Below are positions 378 to 61,588 of a stretch of 64,000 nucleotides of DNA, piece after piece (position 1 is the stretch's first letter; each line of letters begins with the position of its first letter). This DNA comes from Octopus vulgaris. Taxonomy: Eukaryota. The translations under genes were made by a program, and so were the position numbers. The stretch spans positions 126,356,001 through 126,420,000 of the forward strand of contig OX597814.1 of the NCBI GenBank assembly GCA_951406725.2. Reading direction: 5' to 3'. The notes beneath the pieces were generated by a model. That model was not told where the DNA came from. It was given only the letters and a program-made list of their open reading frames with translations, and did no database searches.

Positions 378-549
378 ATGTTGAAGAATGCAATGGCCTA
401 GCTGTCAACTGGGTCACTAATCATCTTTACTGGACTGATGCTAAAACCAGTCGAATTGAGATGTCAAACTATGATGGAAGAGGTCGCCGAATTTTGTTTG
501 GATCTGATCTAGACCAACCAAGAGGAATCATTGTAGATCCAATGTCTGG
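378..549 (+). CDS. LRP/LDLR-family receptor, internal coding exon A (YWTD blade)
   Basis: Acceptor cttgcag at 371-377, donor GG|gtaagt at 550. Translation (D)VEECNGLAVNWVTNHLYWTDAKTSRIEMSNYDGRGRRILFGSDLDQPRGIIVDPMSG is a canonical LYWTD blade. Starts in phase 1, ends in phase 2. Confidence 0.95.
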
Positions 550-4860: not shown

Positions 4861-5999
4861 TTATATATATTATAATATATAATTATATAATTATAATATA
4901 TAATTATATAATTATAATATTATATATATATATATAACACAAGTGTGTGTGCATAGGTATAGCTATGTGATTAAGGAGTCAACTTCACAACCACATAGCT
5001 TCATGTTCGATCCCACTGTGCAGTAACTGAGGCAATTGTCTTCTACTATATTGCCCTATACTGGTGTGTGTGTGTGTGTGTGTGTGTCTGTGTACTTGTA
5101 ACCACTTGATAACTGGTGTTCACCTGTTTATGTCCTTGTAACTAAGCAGTTTAGGAAAATTCAAGACATAAGTACTGGAGTTAATTTTATAGACTAAACC
5201 CTTCAATATTTGTACATGAGGGATTGTATATATGTATGTGTACGTATGGATGTGTGTGTTAAATAAATCGGTAACTAACATTTAAGTAATAAAAACTATC
5301 CCCATCAGAACCAATAATGAAACTAATAAATAGCAGTCTAGGGTGAAAATTTATATTTTAGACATTATACACCAATAGTTAACAATAGTAATCAAAAGAA
5401 ATCATGAAGGCAAATATTGGTTCAAAAACATTGTGTGGTATTAATCTTGCAAGACCATAGATCTGCAAGAAATTCAGCTTGTATTTGACAGATCAGTGTC
5501 TCTAGAAATCCACACAGGAGTATGACTATATATCATCTGTTACTATATTTGGAGGCACTATCAGCTAATCATTTTTTTTTTCTATTTTTGCAATGGAGGC
5601 ACTTTTCTTCACCAACAAACATCAGCTTAGTGAAAATAATTGCTTGCAATGATCTCCCACCTATTGGATATTCATATTCAATAGAATTGGATGCCCTTCC
5701 TATCAGCAACCCTCACTTGTTTCCAAGCAAGGTAGTATTTTCCTATGATTGGGTATGTTTTCACAGAAGATTGGGAACAAATGACACCATGTATGTGATG
5801 GGAATACTTACAACTATTAAGTGTTGTAAAGATTTGACTGCAGAAACATTTGCACACACACACTCACACTATAAGCTTTTTAAATTTCCATCTACCAAAT
5901 TCACTCACAAAGCTTTGTTAGCCCAGTGTTATTGTGGAACTAAACCTCAAACCACATGGATGGGAATCCATGTCAAGTAATGTTAATAGGATTGTTTAG

Positions 6000-7316: not shown

Positions 7317-7320
<4 letters not shown>

Positions 7321-7376
<56 letters not shown>

Positions 7377-7435
7377 GTATATACATGTATATGTGTGTAT
7401 ATGTATATGTGTGTATATGTATATGTGTGTATATG

Positions 7436-7470
<35 letters not shown>

Positions 7471-7499
7471 ATATATATATATGTATATATATATATGTG

Positions 7500-7582
<83 letters not shown>
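7321..7582. repeat. (TA)n/(TG) compound microsatellite
   Basis: Read directly from the sequence. Confidence 0.95.
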
Positions 7583-7586
<4 letters not shown>

Positions 7587-7589
7587 ATA

Positions 7590-7900
7590 AAAAGAATTCC
7601 AACCTTGTCTGATTTTCACGTTTTATTTACAATCTTATAATGATATATTATAAGATAATATATTATAATTGAATAAAATAAAATGAAATAGTAGAATGTT
7701 AAATATTCATTCTGATTGAACTAGTACTTTCATGCATTGAATTCTGCAATCTTCGGGTTCATGTAGTAGTGTTGACAGTCATGCTATTTAACATTCTACT
7801 ATTTCATTTTATTTTATTCAATTATAATATATTATCTTATAATATATCATTATAAGATTGTAAATAAAACGTGAAAATCAGACAAGGTTGGAATTCTTTT
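7590..7900. mobile_element. Perfect 116-bp inverted repeat with 79-bp spacer, inside (TA)n; PLE-type inverted pseudo-LTR
   Basis: 7590-7705 is the exact reverse complement of 7785-7900. The spacer carries a hammerhead motif on the minus strand. Confidence 0.8.
7717..7761 (-). ncRNA. Minimal type-I hammerhead ribozyme motif (U4C variant)
   Basis: Minus strand reads tgaac-CCGAAGA-t-tgca[gaattcaa]tgca-t-GAAA-gtac-TA-gttca. It has a 5-bp stem I, a 4-bp stem II, palindromic gtac in stem III and a UA cleavage dinucleotide. Confidence 0.7.
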
Positions 7901-7934
7901 ATTAATATATTCTTCTATACACAATCACACACAC

Positions 7935-8893
<959 letters not shown>

Positions 8894-9226: not shown

Positions 9227-9583
9227 GAAATGACTGTGGTAAGAAGCTTGCTTCCCAACCACATGGTTTCAGTTTCAGTTCCATTGCATGGCACCTTGGG
9301 CAAGTATTTTCTACTATAACCTCAGGATGATCAAAGCCTAGTGAATAGATATGGTAGACAGAAACTGAAAGAAGCCCGTTGTGTGTGTTTGTGTGTGTGT
9401 GTGTTCCCCAGTACCGCTTGACAACTGGTGTTGGTGTGCTTACATCCCTGTAACTTGGTGCTTCAGGAAAAGAGAACAGTAGAATAAGTACCAGGCTTAA
9501 GATAAATAAGCACTGAGATTGATTCATTTGACTACAAATTCTTCAAGGCATTGCCACAGTTTAAGGACTGAAACAAGTAAAAG
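9227..9583 (+). mobile_element. tRNA-derived SINE family A, tail type 1
   Basis: tgtggtaagaagcttgcttcccaaccacatggtt...ggcaccttgggcaag...gaaactgaaagaagccc-(TG)n-...gactgaaacaagtaaaag. Confidence 0.85.
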
Positions 9584-9819: not shown

Positions 9820-10194
9820 TTTTTTATTTGTTTCAATCATTTGACTGTGGCCATGCTGAAGCACTGCCTTCAGTCAAACAAATCAACCCCAGGATTTATT
9901 CTTTGTAGGCCTAATACCTATTCTATCAGTCTCTTTTGCCAAACTGCTAAGTTACAGGTACATAAACACACCAACATCAGTTGTCAAGTGATGGTGGGGA
10001 ACAAACACAATATATATATTTATACACACACACAACAGGCTTCTTTCAGTTTCAGTCTACCTAATCCACTCACAAGGCTTTGGTTGGTCCAAGGCTATAG
10101 TAGCAGACACTTGGCCAAGGTGCCACACAATGGGACTGAACCCAGAACCATATGGTTGGTAATCAAGCTACTTACCACACAGCCAGTCCAGCAC
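9820..10194 (-). mobile_element. SINE family A, tail type 1
   Basis: Reverse complement of the same consensus as 9227-9583 and 48944-49330. Confidence 0.85.
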
Positions 10195-10265: not shown

Positions 10266-10703
10266 GTGCCTGTGGCTGAGAAGCTTGACTCCATGTGCAG
10301 TCCCTCTGAGTGGCACCTTGAGCAAATGTCTTTTATTATAACTCCTGGTCCAACTAAAGCCTTGTGAAAGGAGTTGGTAGATGGAAACTGAAATAAGTTT
10401 GTTGTCTATGTATGTGTGTGTATATATATATTTCTGTGTGCTGTGCATAAGTTGATGTCTCCTTGTCTTTGTACTGCATGATTGTTGTAAATGAATATCA
10501 CTGTCATACAAACAATGTCTGTCGTTTCTAATCTTCCATGGAAACAAATGCACTCATGGGGAAATATTACCTTACTTTGAAGTTGGCGAGAGTTGGCAGC
10601 AGGAAGGGCATCCAGCCATAGAAAATCTGCCTCATCAACTTTTGCCTGAATAATGTGAATGTGGAAAAGCTAACATTAAATGATGATGATGATGATGATG
10701 ATG
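10266..10703 (+). mobile_element. SINE family A head with RTE-like tail (tail type 2)
   Basis: Family A head, then ggaagggcatccagccatagaaaa...gtggaaaagctaacattaaa(tga)n. Confidence 0.75.
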
Positions 10704-41635: not shown

Positions 41636-41764
41636 GTACGTTTTCTGGGCTGACCAAGGAACTAAGCAAATTGAGCGTTCTCAGTTAAATGGTAATCACC
41701 GGCGAGTATTAATTGATTCAGATTTGCACTGGCCAAATCAATTGGCAATCAGTCCTGCCACCAG
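41636..41764 (+). CDS. LRP-family exon B (YWTD blade)
   Basis: Acceptor ctcttttatag, donor AG|gtgagt. GG+G completes Gly from exon A, then YVFWADQGTKQIERSQLNGNHRRVLIDSDLHWPNQLAISPAT. 129 nt, phase 2-2. This frame is absent from the ORF track. Confidence 0.93.
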
Positions 41765-41922: not shown

Positions 41923-44103
41923 TCACTTTGTCTATCTTAAATACTTGTGGTACCTGAAAATTAGGGAAATAAGAAGGAGTACTAGCTAAATGTCATTTGC
42001 AATTGTTTTGTGCAAATCACTATTGTAACCAGTTCATTGGACTGGTCTCAACTTACCTCTATTCAAACTTGTAAAGCTAAGATTGCAATACTTGCAAGGA
42101 CAAAATTCTAGGTTTATATAAGGCTAACTCAATAATCTGCAATTCATGTATTTTCCTCTTTGATGAAAAGGACATATTACTGGGCATTCTGCTGCAAAAA
42201 TGAGAATATCAAGCTAGATGCCCAATGTGTTAAATATTTATTACCACCAATATTATAATAGTATTTATTGCTGTAAAGTTAAGATGCTGGATTACTAACT
42301 TTGAGATCATAATGCAAATTTTGTTATGGAAATAGTATTTTTCCATTACTGATCTGATCTCAAATAGGCATCAATTTCTATTTCTTGGCTTTCTCTCCTT
42401 TTCTATAGTATCTGAAGACTCCAGTCCAACATAGATCCTCTTATTATGGTAGTGACCACTCATCATAGCCCTTTCTGAGTTACAAATCTCTAAACTCTTA
42501 TCCATAGCCTATCTTTGTTGTTCAAACTACAATCTTTATTCAAAATTACCCTAAAATTTCACTCTCCCTTGGGTATAAGCAATACTCTAGTTCATCTCTC
42601 CCTCTCTACTCGCCCAAATGCATTTATCACTCTTTGAACTCATTCAACTACCAACAGCTCTTTCACCATACTTCTTCCTGTATTGAGGACATATGCCTCA
42701 CTTTGTTCCCATTTTATTACCTTCAATAATACAAAGATATTATCACTGCACATTTCAATCAGAGTGAGACAGAAAGAAGAGGAAAGTTGAGGGAACAGAC
42801 AAAGAGAAAATGAAGGATAAGGATATCAGAAACTGACATTTTGGTATCTCACACTAACATTCCTACTCTCCAACCAATCCATTACAACTATCAGTCAATA
42901 TATCTTTCTTGAATCCTCCATGATTTATAACAAGAGGACCTCCGACCACAGATTTTTTTTTTTGTCATACATTGTTGTAAATGATTTCGGAGTTCTGTGC
43001 AAAGCTTCATTTTGAAATAATGATGATATATCAAGACAGATAACTATCAATGCTCATAAAAATATAGACTTCTCTTCAGTGACATATAAATTTCTAACAA
43101 GATCTGTATACTCATCTCATCTTCCATATCATCTTAAATTTTCATTAGGACTTCTTCACAATGTAAGCAATGTTGTACGCTCAACACTCACCACTTTATC
43201 TTTACCATTTATCCCTATTCATGGCAAAATTAACAGCTTCATTAAATTTAATATTGCCTCCAGCTAGATCAGTATTAAGTTGGAAAATGTCTTTTGCAAA
43301 GCTCCTCTAACACATTTAGGTCTGGTAACTTGATTTATGTAATCCAAAATATTGACCTCCATATCACGATATGACATTATGTCATCTCATATGGTATCAT
43401 TCTAATCATAGCCTTATATGTCATACTATTTTACTGCACACTATATTAAACTATACCAACCATATCAGAGTTCAATAACCTGTTAATGCTTTATCATGTA
43501 TATCATACCAGATCATGATGTGCATTGTTATATACATACCACCATCATCATTATTGTTGTTTAATGTCTGCCTTCCATGCTAACACTATATACTGTTTTA
43601 GAATATTTATCTTACGGTATATAATATCATATCTTGCTATATACCATACCACTTTACACAACATACCTTGCAATATGCCATTCCACTTCATACAACAGTA
43701 TACTATTATGTACCATTCCCCTTCAAACAATAAGATATCTTACTAATATCCATACTATTTCATACAATGCCACAACTTGCTATGTAACATATTTTTCTGT
43801 ATATAATTCTAAATCATATAATATAATTCTTTTTTGTTTGCCATATCATTATTCTAGAAAATGGTAAAGTTATAATGTATAATATATGATTCAATACCAT
43901 TCCCAATACAAGAACATGTGAAAACAGCCCAGGTGTCTACTCTAAAACCAGTTTGTGATTAAGGGAACATTTAACTAGTAGAATTATTCATAACATAATA
44001 ATACAAATATCTGAATAAAGTAATTTTTTTTAAAGCACAAAGCATATATTTTCCAATATATCTATATACTCGAATCTTTATCAACTTGTATTTCTATCCT
44101 CAG

Positions 44104-44387
44104 ACGCCTGTATTGGGTCGATGGAATGAACCACATGATCATGTCATGTGACATGAATGGGAAGAACATAAAGCTGGAGCGGAACACAACAGAGAAAACT
44201 GGCAGCAATGTAATATTTGGGCTTGCTTTATCTGGCAATCGAGCCATTATTAGTGTGTGGTTCCAAGCAAGTCTTTATTCAACACTGGTTGAAGCAGCTG
44301 CTGCTTCTTGGAAAGTGGAATCAGAAATAATTGGCACAAATGAACTATTTAGTATCATTGTTGTAGATGGTTCTGTTCAAGCAACAG
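44104..44387 (+). CDS. LRP-family exon C (last two propeller blades)
   Basis: Acceptor ttctatcctcag. AG+A gives Arg, then RLYWVDGMNHMIMSCDMNGKNIK...VIFGLALSGNRAIISVW...SVQAT. Donor G|gtagag. Phase 2-1. Confidence 0.9.
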
Positions 44388-45592
44388 GTAGAGTTGTTTT
44401 TCTTTTTGTTTGTTTGTTTTTGTTCTCTTATATTCTATCTTTTGGCTTACATATTTGACAATTCTCACTTGCAATGTCTTCAGGATTTTAGAAGCTAGGC
44501 CTCATCAGCAATTAATGCAGCTTGGGGGGAATAAACCCAAAGGGCATATTACCAGAGATGTGGCTATAGAAAATTCAAAGATCCCATTTTCAACAATAGG
44601 TCTGTTGATAATTCAGCACATCAGTTACATTAAAAAATCTTTCACCACTTACCTACACTATATCTAAAACATCTCTAAATCCATGGTGCTACTTGATAAG
44701 CAAGTTTTATTATAGGAAGATCATGAGAAGTAAGCCTCTACATGGTCACTTGGTCTGCTAAAAATAGCACCCAAATACTCCTCAAATTACACTCTACTGT
44801 CTTCAAAAGTGGAGAAAATATTATATTTAGATGCACTATATCATAAAATAAGATGGGGTGGTGATGGCTAGAATGCCTTTGAGTAGAGATCAACTTTATT
44901 AGCTGACCTGGGACTAAAACAACCATGGCTGAACACTTGGCTGAACCATTGACATCATCATCATCATTTAACAACTGTTCTCTATGCTAGCACAAGTTGA
45001 ATGGTTTGACAAGATCCATGCTCCAAATGTTTTGGCATGCTTTCTACTGCTAGAGATCATTTCTAACGCCAACCACTTTACAGAGTGTATTGGGTGCTTT
45101 TCCATGGTACCACCACAAGGAATTAAGGAGGCTCCTATAAGTGGAGGAGAGTCGGAAAGAGAGAGTGTGAGAATGTTATGCAAATTGATGGGGAAGGATG
45201 AAGTATAATGAGAGGAACAGATTTATAGCTGTGAGCAGGAAAAAACGATAGCCAGCTCTGATAGTATTATATTGGCCTAAAAATCCATCTGTGCTGGATT
45301 ATGTTATGTGTATGCCTGGTTATGGTCTACAAATCACATCCAAATGTCTGCACTGTCATGTGTGTTGAAGTGTTCCTGTATCAAGATATATGTTAGTCTT
45401 TATGTTTGCATGTGTCATGCACAATAGCTCTTTATGACAAAAACCATGACCATTGGTTTATACCTGTGTAATATTCATCTGTACATGTTTATATATGTAT
45501 GAGATTAAGAAAGAGTTAGAGAGAAATTCTCACACATACATGAAATTTGGACACACACACACACTCATATTATACATTGAAATCTAATCTCT

Positions 45593-46554: not shown

Positions 46555-46692
46555 TTTACCAACATCCATGCAGTCAACCAGGAAATGGTGGCTGTTCTCA
46601 CCTGTGCATGCCAAAAGGAGGTATCAAATATATATGTGTTTGCCCATCATTTGGAGGTTTGGCTCTTTCCAAAGACAAAAAGACATGTGAAG
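46555..46692 (+). CDS. LRP-family exon D (EGF-like module after propeller)
   Basis: Poly-T tract plus ccatag acceptor. G+TT gives Val, then YQHPCSQPGNGGCSHLCMPKGGIKYICVCPSFGGLALSKDKKTCE, a six-Cys NGGCSHLC EGF. Donor G|gtaaac. Phase 1-1. Confidence 0.95.
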
Positions 46693-60897: not shown

Positions 60898-61588
60898 TCA
60901 TCATCATCATCATCATCATTTAATGTCCGTTGTTCATGCTGGCATGGTTTGGATGGTTTGACCAGGGCTGGCAAGCTGGAAGGTTACACCAGACTCCAGT
61001 CTGATTCAGCATGGTTTCTATAGCTGGATGCCCTTCCTAACACAACCACTCTGATAGTGTAATGGGTGCTTCTACACACCACCGGCATGGGTGCCATTTA
61101 CTTGGCATGATGGGTCATCTTCTCAAGCACAACATAATGCCAAAGGTCTCAGTCATTGTCTCCATGAAACCCAACACTTGGAAGGAACTCAGCCACTTTG
61201 CCTCTGTGAGGCTCAATGCTCGAAAGGAACTCACCTCTGTGAGGCCCAGTGCTTGAAAGGAACTCACCTCCATGAGACCCAATGTTCGAAAGGAACTTGC
61301 ATTCATGAGACCCAATGCTGAAAAGGAACTCAGCCACTTTGCCTCCATGAGGTCCAACACTCGAAAGGTACTCTTTACACACCACCAGCATGGGTGCCAG
61401 TTACATGACACCAGCATCAGTCACGACTATGATTTCACTTGGCTTGACGGGTCTTCTCAAGCACAGCATGTCGCCAAAGGTCTCGGTCACTAGTCATTGC
61501 CTCTGTGAAGCTCAAAGTTTGAAGACCATGCTTCACCACCTTGTCCCATGTCTTCCTGGGTCTACCTCTACCTCAGGTTCCCTCCATA
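60898..61588 (-). mobile_element. RTE 3' fragment with internal duplication and 30-40-bp tandem array
   Basis: (cat)n tail at 60898, ggaactca...gaggccca..act/gctc units at 61160-61370, and ORF-end sequence ccatgtcttcctgggtctacctctacc at about 61545-61572. Confidence 0.8.

What the first reader, a model, noticed from the sequence alone, without database searches (positions are those of the whole stretch)
7590..7900. Perfect 116-bp palindrome whose 79-nt loop holds a hammerhead ribozyme motif, inside a very long (TA)n tract
Seen: zero-mismatch inverted arms. The spacer, read on the minus strand, contains a complete minimal HHR (stem I tgaac/gttca, stem II tgca/tgca, gtac palindrome, UA site) with CCGAAGA instead of CUGAAGA. 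Established: PLEs make inverted pseudo-LTR insertions, carry HHRs and some favour microsatellites. Inference: a very recent (or gene-converted) 310-bp non-autonomous ribozyme-foldback unit. It would form 116 bp of dsRNA in the host pre-mRNA and a cruciform-prone DNA site.
Basis: partly seen in the sequence, partly recalled or inferred. Interest (0 to 1): 0.75.

Follow-up and report, generated by a model that had tools for sequence, protein, structure and literature searches.

The report
Inverted Penelope retrotransposon stub with hammerhead
This hairpin is one of many hundreds of recent scraps of a Penelope-type jumping gene: two cut-short copies of the element's end lie head to head in a TA repeat, one keeps a self-cutting-RNA motif with a changed core letter, and the family's copies suggest that the two halves were likely copied from one RNA, starting from both sides of a DNA break.

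Summary
The palindrome (116 bp, no mismatch), the 79-nt loop and the hammerhead-like motif are real. It is not a 310-bp non-autonomous unit: its junction occurs once in the genome. It is an inverted, 5'-truncated insertion of a young Neptune-type Penelope-like retrotransposon (4,271-bp unit, RT plus GIY-YIG; 1,641 exact element ends), likely inside a 41-kb intron of an LRP-type gene, with the hammerhead antisense to that gene. U4C marks the youngest subfamily (1,192 versus 414 canonical; control 5). Family evidence on mechanism: every callable inverted insertion has one tailed and one tail-less end (30 of 30); both ends sit at AT runs of the element itself; 24 of 100 copies stop about 30 nt past a TATA-like box and none at the predicted ribozyme cut; the commonest junction's centre base reads both ways (17:13). 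This favours twin priming on one uncut sense RNA over the published self-priming idea. The kind is known, and this scan noted such stubs and the two-end rule before, on other DNA. Cleavage, expression, editing and polymorphism are unshown.

The parts
7317..7583 (.). Left (TA)n-rich tract, the target on the tail-less side
   Evidence: Tandem repeat scan, period 2, 87% matches
7585..7785 (-). Inverted, tail-less copy of the element's 3' end (pLTR), reaching element position -191 (0 = last base of the end marker); 100% identical to the natural unit in L081 from -191 to 0
7590..7705 (.). Left perfect arm (116 nt), the part shared by both copies
7706..7784 (-). The 'loop': element positions -190 to -112, present only in the longer copy
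7717..7761 (-). Minimal type I hammerhead motif: stem I 7761-7757/7721-7717, core 7756-7750 with C in place of U4 at 7755, stem II 7748-7745/7736-7733 closed by U.U, GAAA 7731-7728, palindromic GUAC; predicted cut between 7722 and 7721
   Evidence: alleles
7785..7785 (.). Inversion junction with one shared base; unique in the genome
7785..7904 (+). Direct, 5'-truncated copy of the element end, from position -111; holds the right perfect arm 7785-7900
7905..7936 (+). 32-nt tail, on this end only; in the full unit it lies between a short AT run and an (AT)7 run
7937..8885 (.). Right (TA)n tract, 949 nt; the longest among the ends sampled (medians 45 and 56 nt, lengths capped at 250)
378..549 (+). 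Upstream exon of an LRP-type host gene (YWTD repeat)
   Evidence: Pfam Ldl_recept_b, E 6.6e-11; splice signals
41636..41764 (+). Next recognisable exon of the host gene; joins exon 378-549 in frame across a predicted 41,086-nt intron that holds the insertion

Best explanation
The feature is a single inverted, 5'-truncated insertion of a young Penelope-like retrotransposon in a (TA)n tract, and it was likely made by twin priming: both DNA ends of one break were likely extended on one uncut sense RNA. [quoted passage not shown] INFERRED: the nuclease cuts both strands of (TA)n; because (TA)n is self-complementary, each 3' end pairs with one of the two AU runs, about 30 nt apart; each primes its own cDNA; the cDNAs run through the hammerhead without stopping, often to the RNA's 5' end (element -208); their 3' ends join by micro-homology and are filled in. 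Here they stopped at -191 and -111, which left the hammerhead in one arm only. This lone hammerhead is predicted to be inert: no promoter is included, it faces away from the host gene, its helix III needs a second copy, and it carries U4C and U.U. Confidence by step: identity 0.97; hammerhead ancestry 0.9; start site at -208 0.75; twin priming 0.6.
For: Parent element: tandem units of 4,271 bp, two neighbours with 0 mismatches; ORF2 of 775 codons; GIY-YIG above the Pfam cut-off, RVT_1 E 2.3e-6 just under it; 42 of 150 listed nuclease hits lie in a 775-codon open frame (counted by hand). 1,641 exact end markers, control 0. 130 of 131 outer ends are followed by at least 10 nt of TA. One tail plus one tail-less end: 36 of 38 pairs directly, and in the other 2 the outer end of the tandem arm lacks the tail; 30 of 30 callable among 40 fetched of the 76 commonest junctions (the sets overlap). 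Lone copies joined to TA at the 5' side start at either site (17 tailed, 9 tail-less), so fold-back of one cDNA should give some pairs with no tail at all; none was seen. The tail-less arm is the longer one in 10 pairs, the tailed arm in 7. 24 of 100 chromosome-1 arms end at -209 to -202, about 30 nt past TATTTATA and CCAAT boxes; 0 of 100 end at -130 to -124 (p 1e-28 against an even spread over -600 to -30). The commonest junction is what two ends at -208 give if they pair through a 5-nt palindrome with a central T.T mismatch; its centre reads A in 17 and T in 13 relative to the tail, in both subfamilies. Lineage variants are shared by both arms in 8 of 11 cases, and the core base agrees between arms in 28 of the 29 loci where both read C or T. 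In vitro, an anole element cuts and extends both strands, starts at two adjacent RNA sites and uses uncut RNA (PMC11167929).
Against: All mechanistic evidence is from one assembly. If it was polished with short reads, the centre base of a 210-bp palindrome could be set at random, which would mimic 17:13. Recombination or template switching between the arms after insertion could flip the centre or the loop and so mimic both 17:13 and 10:7. The start site is inferred from motifs and end points; no RNA ends were available. The anole element primed at RNA sites not homologous to the cut DNA, unlike the pairing proposed here. 22 substitutions were specific to one arm, 3 of them seen at other loci. 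Stems are invariant between subfamilies, so no covariation supports the hammerhead fold.
Confidence: 0.7

Rival explanations
1. Same element, but the inversion comes from one copying event that folds back: either self-priming of an antisense RNA (the reading in PMC3846280) or snap-back of a single cDNA, followed by uneven deletion or flipping at the centre.
For: Both arms share lineage variants (8 of 11). 5 pairs off the hot spot have arms within 25 nt of each other. Junctions mostly show short overlaps. Long palindromes are prone to central rearrangement (recalled).
Against: A tail-primed strand that folds back cannot give a longer tail-less arm (10 pairs, the window among them) or a T centre (13 of 30) without a later event. 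A tail-less first strand that folds back would give pairs without any tail: 0 of 30 and 0 of 38, although 9 of 26 lone copies are tail-less. Lone copies also stop at the hot spot, next to a sense-strand TATA-like box.
Confidence: 0.22
2. A non-autonomous ribozyme-foldback unit of about 310 bp that moves as such.
For: A related short foldback with one identical junction occurs 76 times. Non-autonomous hammerhead derivatives of Penelope-like elements exist (10.64898/2026.07.22.740005).
Against: This junction occurs once. Limits vary between copies. The 76-copy junction occurs in both subfamily backgrounds (C/C 17, T/T 11) and in both orientations relative to the tail, as expected if it forms anew each time.
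Confidence: 0.03
3. An assembly or read fold-back artefact.
For: No listed contig from four other runs bridges the junction, and raw long reads were not available. The T run near the end differs by one base between the arms here and in several other pairs.
Against: A fold-back chimera would not give one tailed and one tail-less end, each at a site that the family uses hundreds of times. The flanks on the two sides are unrelated sequence. Contigs cannot show absence.
Confidence: 0.03
4. A foldback or MITE-type DNA transposon with long terminal inverted repeats.
For: Long perfect inverted arms in a TA target.
Against: The two ends are unlike, the arms run on into an RT-nuclease ORF and occur as head-to-tail tandems.
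Confidence: 0.01

Closest known systems
Inverted 5'-truncated pLTR insertions with a one-sided 30-40 bp tail of endonuclease-bearing Penelope-like elements (PMC8557442; PMC3846280)
   Same: Head-to-head inverted copy, 5' truncation, tail on one end, partial tandems, hammerhead in the pLTR, (TA)n target.
   Different: In print the tail is 'optional' or 'often' on one end; here the rule held in every callable pair. In print the inversion is read as self-priming on an antisense template; the copies here fit twin priming on sense RNA better.
Neptune clade of Penelope-like elements (PMC8557442, Figs 1, S1, S2)
   Same: RT followed by a CX4CxxC linker and a GIY-YIG nuclease with CCHH; GxKF and DKG motifs; long spacer after the linker and an RT4 motif like the two Neptune rows (compared by eye); (TA)n target.
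   Different: No tree with reference sequences was built, so Nematis is excluded by eye only. The nearest database proteins are 65% identical and unnamed.
Minimal type I hammerheads of metazoan Penelope-like elements (PMC4209133)
   Same: 5-bp helix I, unpaired base after A9, small palindromic helix III that needs a dimer.
   Different: U.U in place of G10.1-C11.1 in all three subfamilies; U4C in the youngest. Each change is known singly in other hammerheads (PMC3088659: U4C lowers activity in vitro but supports viroid infection; U10.1-U11.1 is tolerated).
Poseidon element of Anolis in vitro (PMC11167929)
   Same: Two adjacent internal start sites that bound the tail; both strands cut and extended; uncut RNA is the template.
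   Different: There the start sites are not homologous to the cut DNA; here both start sites are AT runs that match the target.
Twin priming of human L1 (recalled; only a search listing seen)
   Same: Two target ends prime on one RNA, and the cDNAs join by micro-homology.
   Different: In L1 the second site is internal and variable, so nothing is duplicated; here it is fixed about 30 nt from the first, so the end is duplicated in mirror image.

Membership tests
Endonuclease-bearing Penelope-like element (parent family) | RT with a C-terminal GIY-YIG nuclease | tested here: met
   P0001: YLDD, GIY-YIG 24.8 bits (cut-off 22.6), RVT_1 27.9 bits (cut-off 29.6, not reached); 3,026 relatives at E 1e-30 among 7,985 scored
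Endonuclease-bearing Penelope-like element (parent family) | Tandem or partial-tandem copies forming pLTRs, and an inverted 5'-truncated copy | tested here: met
   4,271-bp tandems; 38 inverted pairs
Endonuclease-bearing Penelope-like element (parent family) | 30-40 bp tail on one end | tested here: met
   32 nt, 7905-7936
Neptune clade | CX2-5CxxC linker between RT and nuclease, and CCHH in the nuclease | tested here: met
   CX4CxxC linker, CxxC inside the GIY-YIG core and two downstream His in P0001; definitions
Neptune clade | Placement with Neptune rather than Nematis in an RT tree | not tested
   Compared by eye with Figs S1 and S2 of PMC8557442 only
Hydra clade | DKT motif, no CCHH, CxCX5C linker, generally under 3 kb | tested here: not met
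   DKG, CCHH and CX4CxxC present; unit 4.3 kb
Naiad/Chlamys | N-terminal nuclease, no canonical hammerhead | tested here: not met
   Nuclease at residues 680-766 of 768
Minimal type I hammerhead | Core CUGANGA | tested here: not met
   CCGAAGA in this copy and in 1,192 copies; met in 414 older copies
Minimal type I hammerhead | GAAA, UH site, helices I and II, palindromic helix III | tested here: met
   0 of 200,000 shuffles
Minimal type I hammerhead | G10.1-C11.1 closing pair | tested here: not met
   U.U in subfamilies A, B and C
Minimal type I hammerhead | Compensatory changes in the stems | tested here: inconclusive
   Stems nearly invariant (3 of 126 cells differ, 28 of them fixed by the search pattern) while flanks differ 20-28% and loop II 23 of 56 (7 fixed by the pattern); no double change
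Minimal type I hammerhead | Match to a curated Rfam hammerhead model | tested here: not met
   No hammerhead family at E up to 10
Minimal type I hammerhead | Self-cleavage | not testable with these tools
   No raw RNA reads offered; 0 of 100 copies end at the predicted cut
Non-LTR retrozyme or other non-autonomous unit | Fixed non-coding unit that multiplies, in tandem, with a hammerhead per unit | tested here: not met
   Junction single-copy; no tandem of this unit; definition
Foldback/MITE DNA transposon | Equal terminal inverted repeats, constant ends, transposase partner | tested here: not met
   Unlike ends, variable centre, RT partner

The most novel reading that the evidence does not exclude
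The copies of this family record how Penelope-like elements make head-to-head inversions: both ends of a cut (TA)n tract pair with two fixed AU runs in one uncut sense RNA, two cDNAs are made, and they join at their 3' ends, often after running off the RNA's capped 5' end. The youngest and most successful subfamily spread with a weakened hammerhead core (U4C), so cutting is dispensable for, or even works against, spread.
Probability: 0.5. Interest if true: 0.65.

Novelty: new member of a known kind. Interest (0 to 1): 0.4.

Why it matters
The locus itself is ordinary. The family matters because the origin of inverted pLTRs and of the one-sided tail is stated as open in PMC3846280, PMC8557442 and PMC11167929. 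A very young family with many intact frames, two fixed start sites that match the target and a recurring junction with a readable mismatch gives sharp predictions for an in vitro system. The natural U4/C4 pair of otherwise near-identical hammerheads is a ready test of whether cutting helps or hinders these elements. Such stubs also put long perfect hairpins into host introns, as is likely here, which could draw editing or small RNAs; that is untested.

Tried and rejected
Rfam: only miRNA-type chance matches, no hammerhead. CpG decay as the source of the U4 copies: rejected, since the mirror product occurs 5 times against 414. Search for other hammerhead families with covarying stems by a loose core pattern: 825 matches against 71 for the control; the listed ones were mostly subfamilies B and C, and five unrelated matches that I inspected lacked helix I, so no covariation was found. 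Longer TA tracts on the tailed side (reiterative copying): medians 56 and 45 nt, p 0.08, not supported; most loci had only about 300 nt of flank. Sequencing runs: no RNA holder listed; four runs guessed to be RNA cover the unit without a splice joint, which says nothing on expression. Presence of this insertion in four other runs: no listed contig bridges the junction, which is no proof of absence. A stimulatory structure after the U7 run in the ORF overlap: none predicted (-2.1 kcal/mol). ORF1: no Pfam match. My first extension script stopped early on subfamily B copies; one search replaced it. An RT stall at the small hairpin near the hot spot: it would stop copies at the hairpin's 3' foot (about -181), not at its 5' end (-208). 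Look-ups of earlier scan notes by place and by sequence gave nothing.

Full report
Observation. The arms are 7590-7705 and 7785-7900, 116 nt each with no mismatch, around a 79-nt loop, between TA tracts of 267 and 949 nt. On the minus strand, 7761-7717 holds a hammerhead-like motif; alone it folds into stems I and II, and 0 of 200,000 shuffles of the loop matched a relaxed descriptor. It departs from the consensus at U4 (C) and at the closing pair of stem II (U.U). Rfam gave no hammerhead match at E up to 10.

What the sequence belongs to. A search of the own genome (2.8 Gb) with the feature scored 40 of 92 candidates and found arm plus loop as one continuous stretch, mostly 98-100% identical. 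In those loci the arms are longer or shorter than here, the centre varies, and one end carries an extra tail. [quoted passage not shown] A 26-nt end marker occurs 1,641 times, control 0. A natural tandem gives the unit: 4,271 bp, two neighbours identical, with ORF1 (430 aa) overlapping a 775-codon RT-nuclease frame in the -1 frame; 7 of 9 complete units had both frames open, and the overlap with its U7 run was identical in 17 of 17. An ORF1 set off by a frameshift is known for these elements (PMC8557442, Fig. 1 legend). GxKF, DKG, a CX4CxxC linker and CCHH exclude Hydra and Naiad and point to Neptune; Nematis is excluded only by eye. The nearest database proteins are unnamed (65%); named ones include several bivalve proteins. 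The host is probably a cephalopod (recalled repeat style and scan notes; not tested).

This copy. With 0 at the end marker, the left arm is an inverted, tail-less copy reaching -191, and the right arm is a direct copy from -111 with the 32-nt tail; they share one base at 7785. The junction occurs once in the genome. So the 'loop' is the 79 nt by which the left copy is longer, and the insert is 7585-7936. Pfam scans of 29 of the window's 129 long open frames, then a motif search, found exons of an LRP-type gene on the plus strand; exons ending at 549 and starting at 41636 join in frame across 41,086 nt. A missed exon in between is possible. The pre-mRNA would then hold the hairpin (-177 kcal/mol) but not the hammerhead, which faces the other way.

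The hammerhead. Exact core counts are 1,192 with C4, 414 with U4 and 5 for the CpG-decay control. Copies with U4 are more diverse (2.8% mean pairwise difference among 12, against 0.8% among 48 with C4), and a still older subfamily also has U4, so C4 is derived and marks the latest burst. Between the youngest subfamily and 7 copies of the oldest, stems differ at 3 of 126 cells, loop II at 23 of 56 and the flanks at 84 of 301 and 55 of 273; part of the core, one stem strand and one loop base were fixed by the search pattern, and the copies are related. This suggests selection on the motif but shows no covariation. U4C and U10.1-U11.1 are each known natural variants, the first with much lower activity in vitro (PMC3088659, passages).

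How the inversions are likely made. I fetched the loci of the first 100 listed end markers on contig 1 (two duplicate hits from overlapping fetches dropped). 24 of 100 arms end at -209 to -202 and none at -130 to -124, around the predicted cut. The hot spot lies about 30 nt past a TATA-like box preceded by CCAAT boxes, so it is likely the transcription start and the template was uncut RNA. In the full unit a short AT run follows the tail-less end point and an (AT)7 run follows the tail, and 130 of 131 outer ends abut TA, which suggests priming by pairing with the target. Of 38 inverted pairs (20 from the contig-1 set, 18 from the first, biased search), 36 have one tailed and one tail-less arm, and in the other 2 the outer end of the tandem arm lacks the tail. 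Off the hot spot the tail-less arm is longer in 10, the tailed arm in 7, and 5 are within 25 nt; 13 have both arms at the hot spot, and 3 with tandems were set aside. Lone copies start at either site (17 and 9). The commonest junction occurs 76 times; of 40 fetched, 30 had both ends callable, all 30 one of each kind, and the centre base read A in 17 and T in 13 relative to the tail, in both subfamilies. Two cDNAs ending at -208 and pairing across a T.T mismatch predict this; one strand folding back, or a unit that multiplies, predicts a fixed base. Both arms share lineage variants in 8 of 11 cases, which points to one template.

Against this reading. Short-read polishing could randomise a base in the centre of a 210-bp palindrome, and later recombination between arms could flip centres and loops; neither could be tested. 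22 substitutions were arm-specific, and some loci carry many small deletions that look like assembly error. The anole element primed at non-homologous sites. No RNA evidence was available, and no listed contig of four other runs bridged this junction.

What is known. Inverted truncated copies, one-sided tails, TA targeting and pLTR hammerheads are all described (PMC8557442: passages, sections 3 and 11, supplement search and part 54; PMC4209133: parts 1-2 of 4; PMC3846280: passages and Discussion). PMC3846280 reads head-to-head junctions as self-priming on an antisense template and calls the question open. PMC11167929 (parts 1-2 of 4 and passages) shows two start sites and extension of both strands, and its only 'inverted' is a primer block. 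Four searches found no paper with a twin-priming model for these elements; subscription journals are largely missing from the library, and the supplements of the retrozyme preprint (part 1 of 5 read) were not seen. A repeat annotation of an octopus lists 336 recently active Penelope-like insertions in 31 families (PMC13282606, passages). This scan has noted such stubs, the two-end rule and two-ended copying before, on other DNA of this genome and of others; those are unchecked notes, not support.

Verdict. Observation confirmed, interpretation partly supported. The locus is a new member of a known kind. Interest 0.4, from what the family shows about an open step of Penelope replication and from the U4C sweep.

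Noticed in passing
L081 (minus strand), unit positions about +1290 to +1375: ORF1 (430 aa, no Pfam match) overlaps the RT-nuclease frame, which lacks its own early start codon; an A7 and a U7 run lie at the start of the overlap, identical in 17 of 17 copies. Likely a -1 frameshift; no downstream structure predicted.
   Followed up: partly
L081, L207, L213, at the 5' hot spot (element -208 onward): A small hairpin is predicted to begin at the hot spot in both the youngest and the oldest subfamily, with one C-G pair read as U-A in the oldest; not predicted in L204. A possible 5'-end signal of the RNA.
   Followed up: partly
window 7589-7593 and 7897-7900; L002, L011, L019, L027, L135, L153: The T run just inside the element end often differs by one base between the two arms of one insertion, but hardly varies among lone copies. 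RT slippage in two separate cDNAs, or assembly error.
   Followed up: partly
window 378-549, 41636-41764, near 44100-44390 and 46560-46690 (+): Exons of an LRP-type gene (YWTD repeats, then an EGF-like domain) with a predicted 41-kb intron.
   Followed up: partly
window 7706-7936 against public runs: 20 listed runs under five organism labels hold most words of the element end; in three laid runs the U4 allele makes up 37-64% of summed contig depth, and a fourth holds one C4 contig.
   Followed up: partly
window 5008-5159, 5879-5917, 9276-9471, 10044-10082, 10298-10421: Several diverged copies of a short interspersed repeat near the insertion (families D6-D9).
   Followed up: no
window 61207-61332: A G+C-richer 33-bp tandem repeat, 3.8 copies, in an open frame on both strands.
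   Followed up: no
L095: Two inverted insertions of this family lie within 3.2 kb of each other, which suggests repeated targeting of one TA tract.
   Followed up: no
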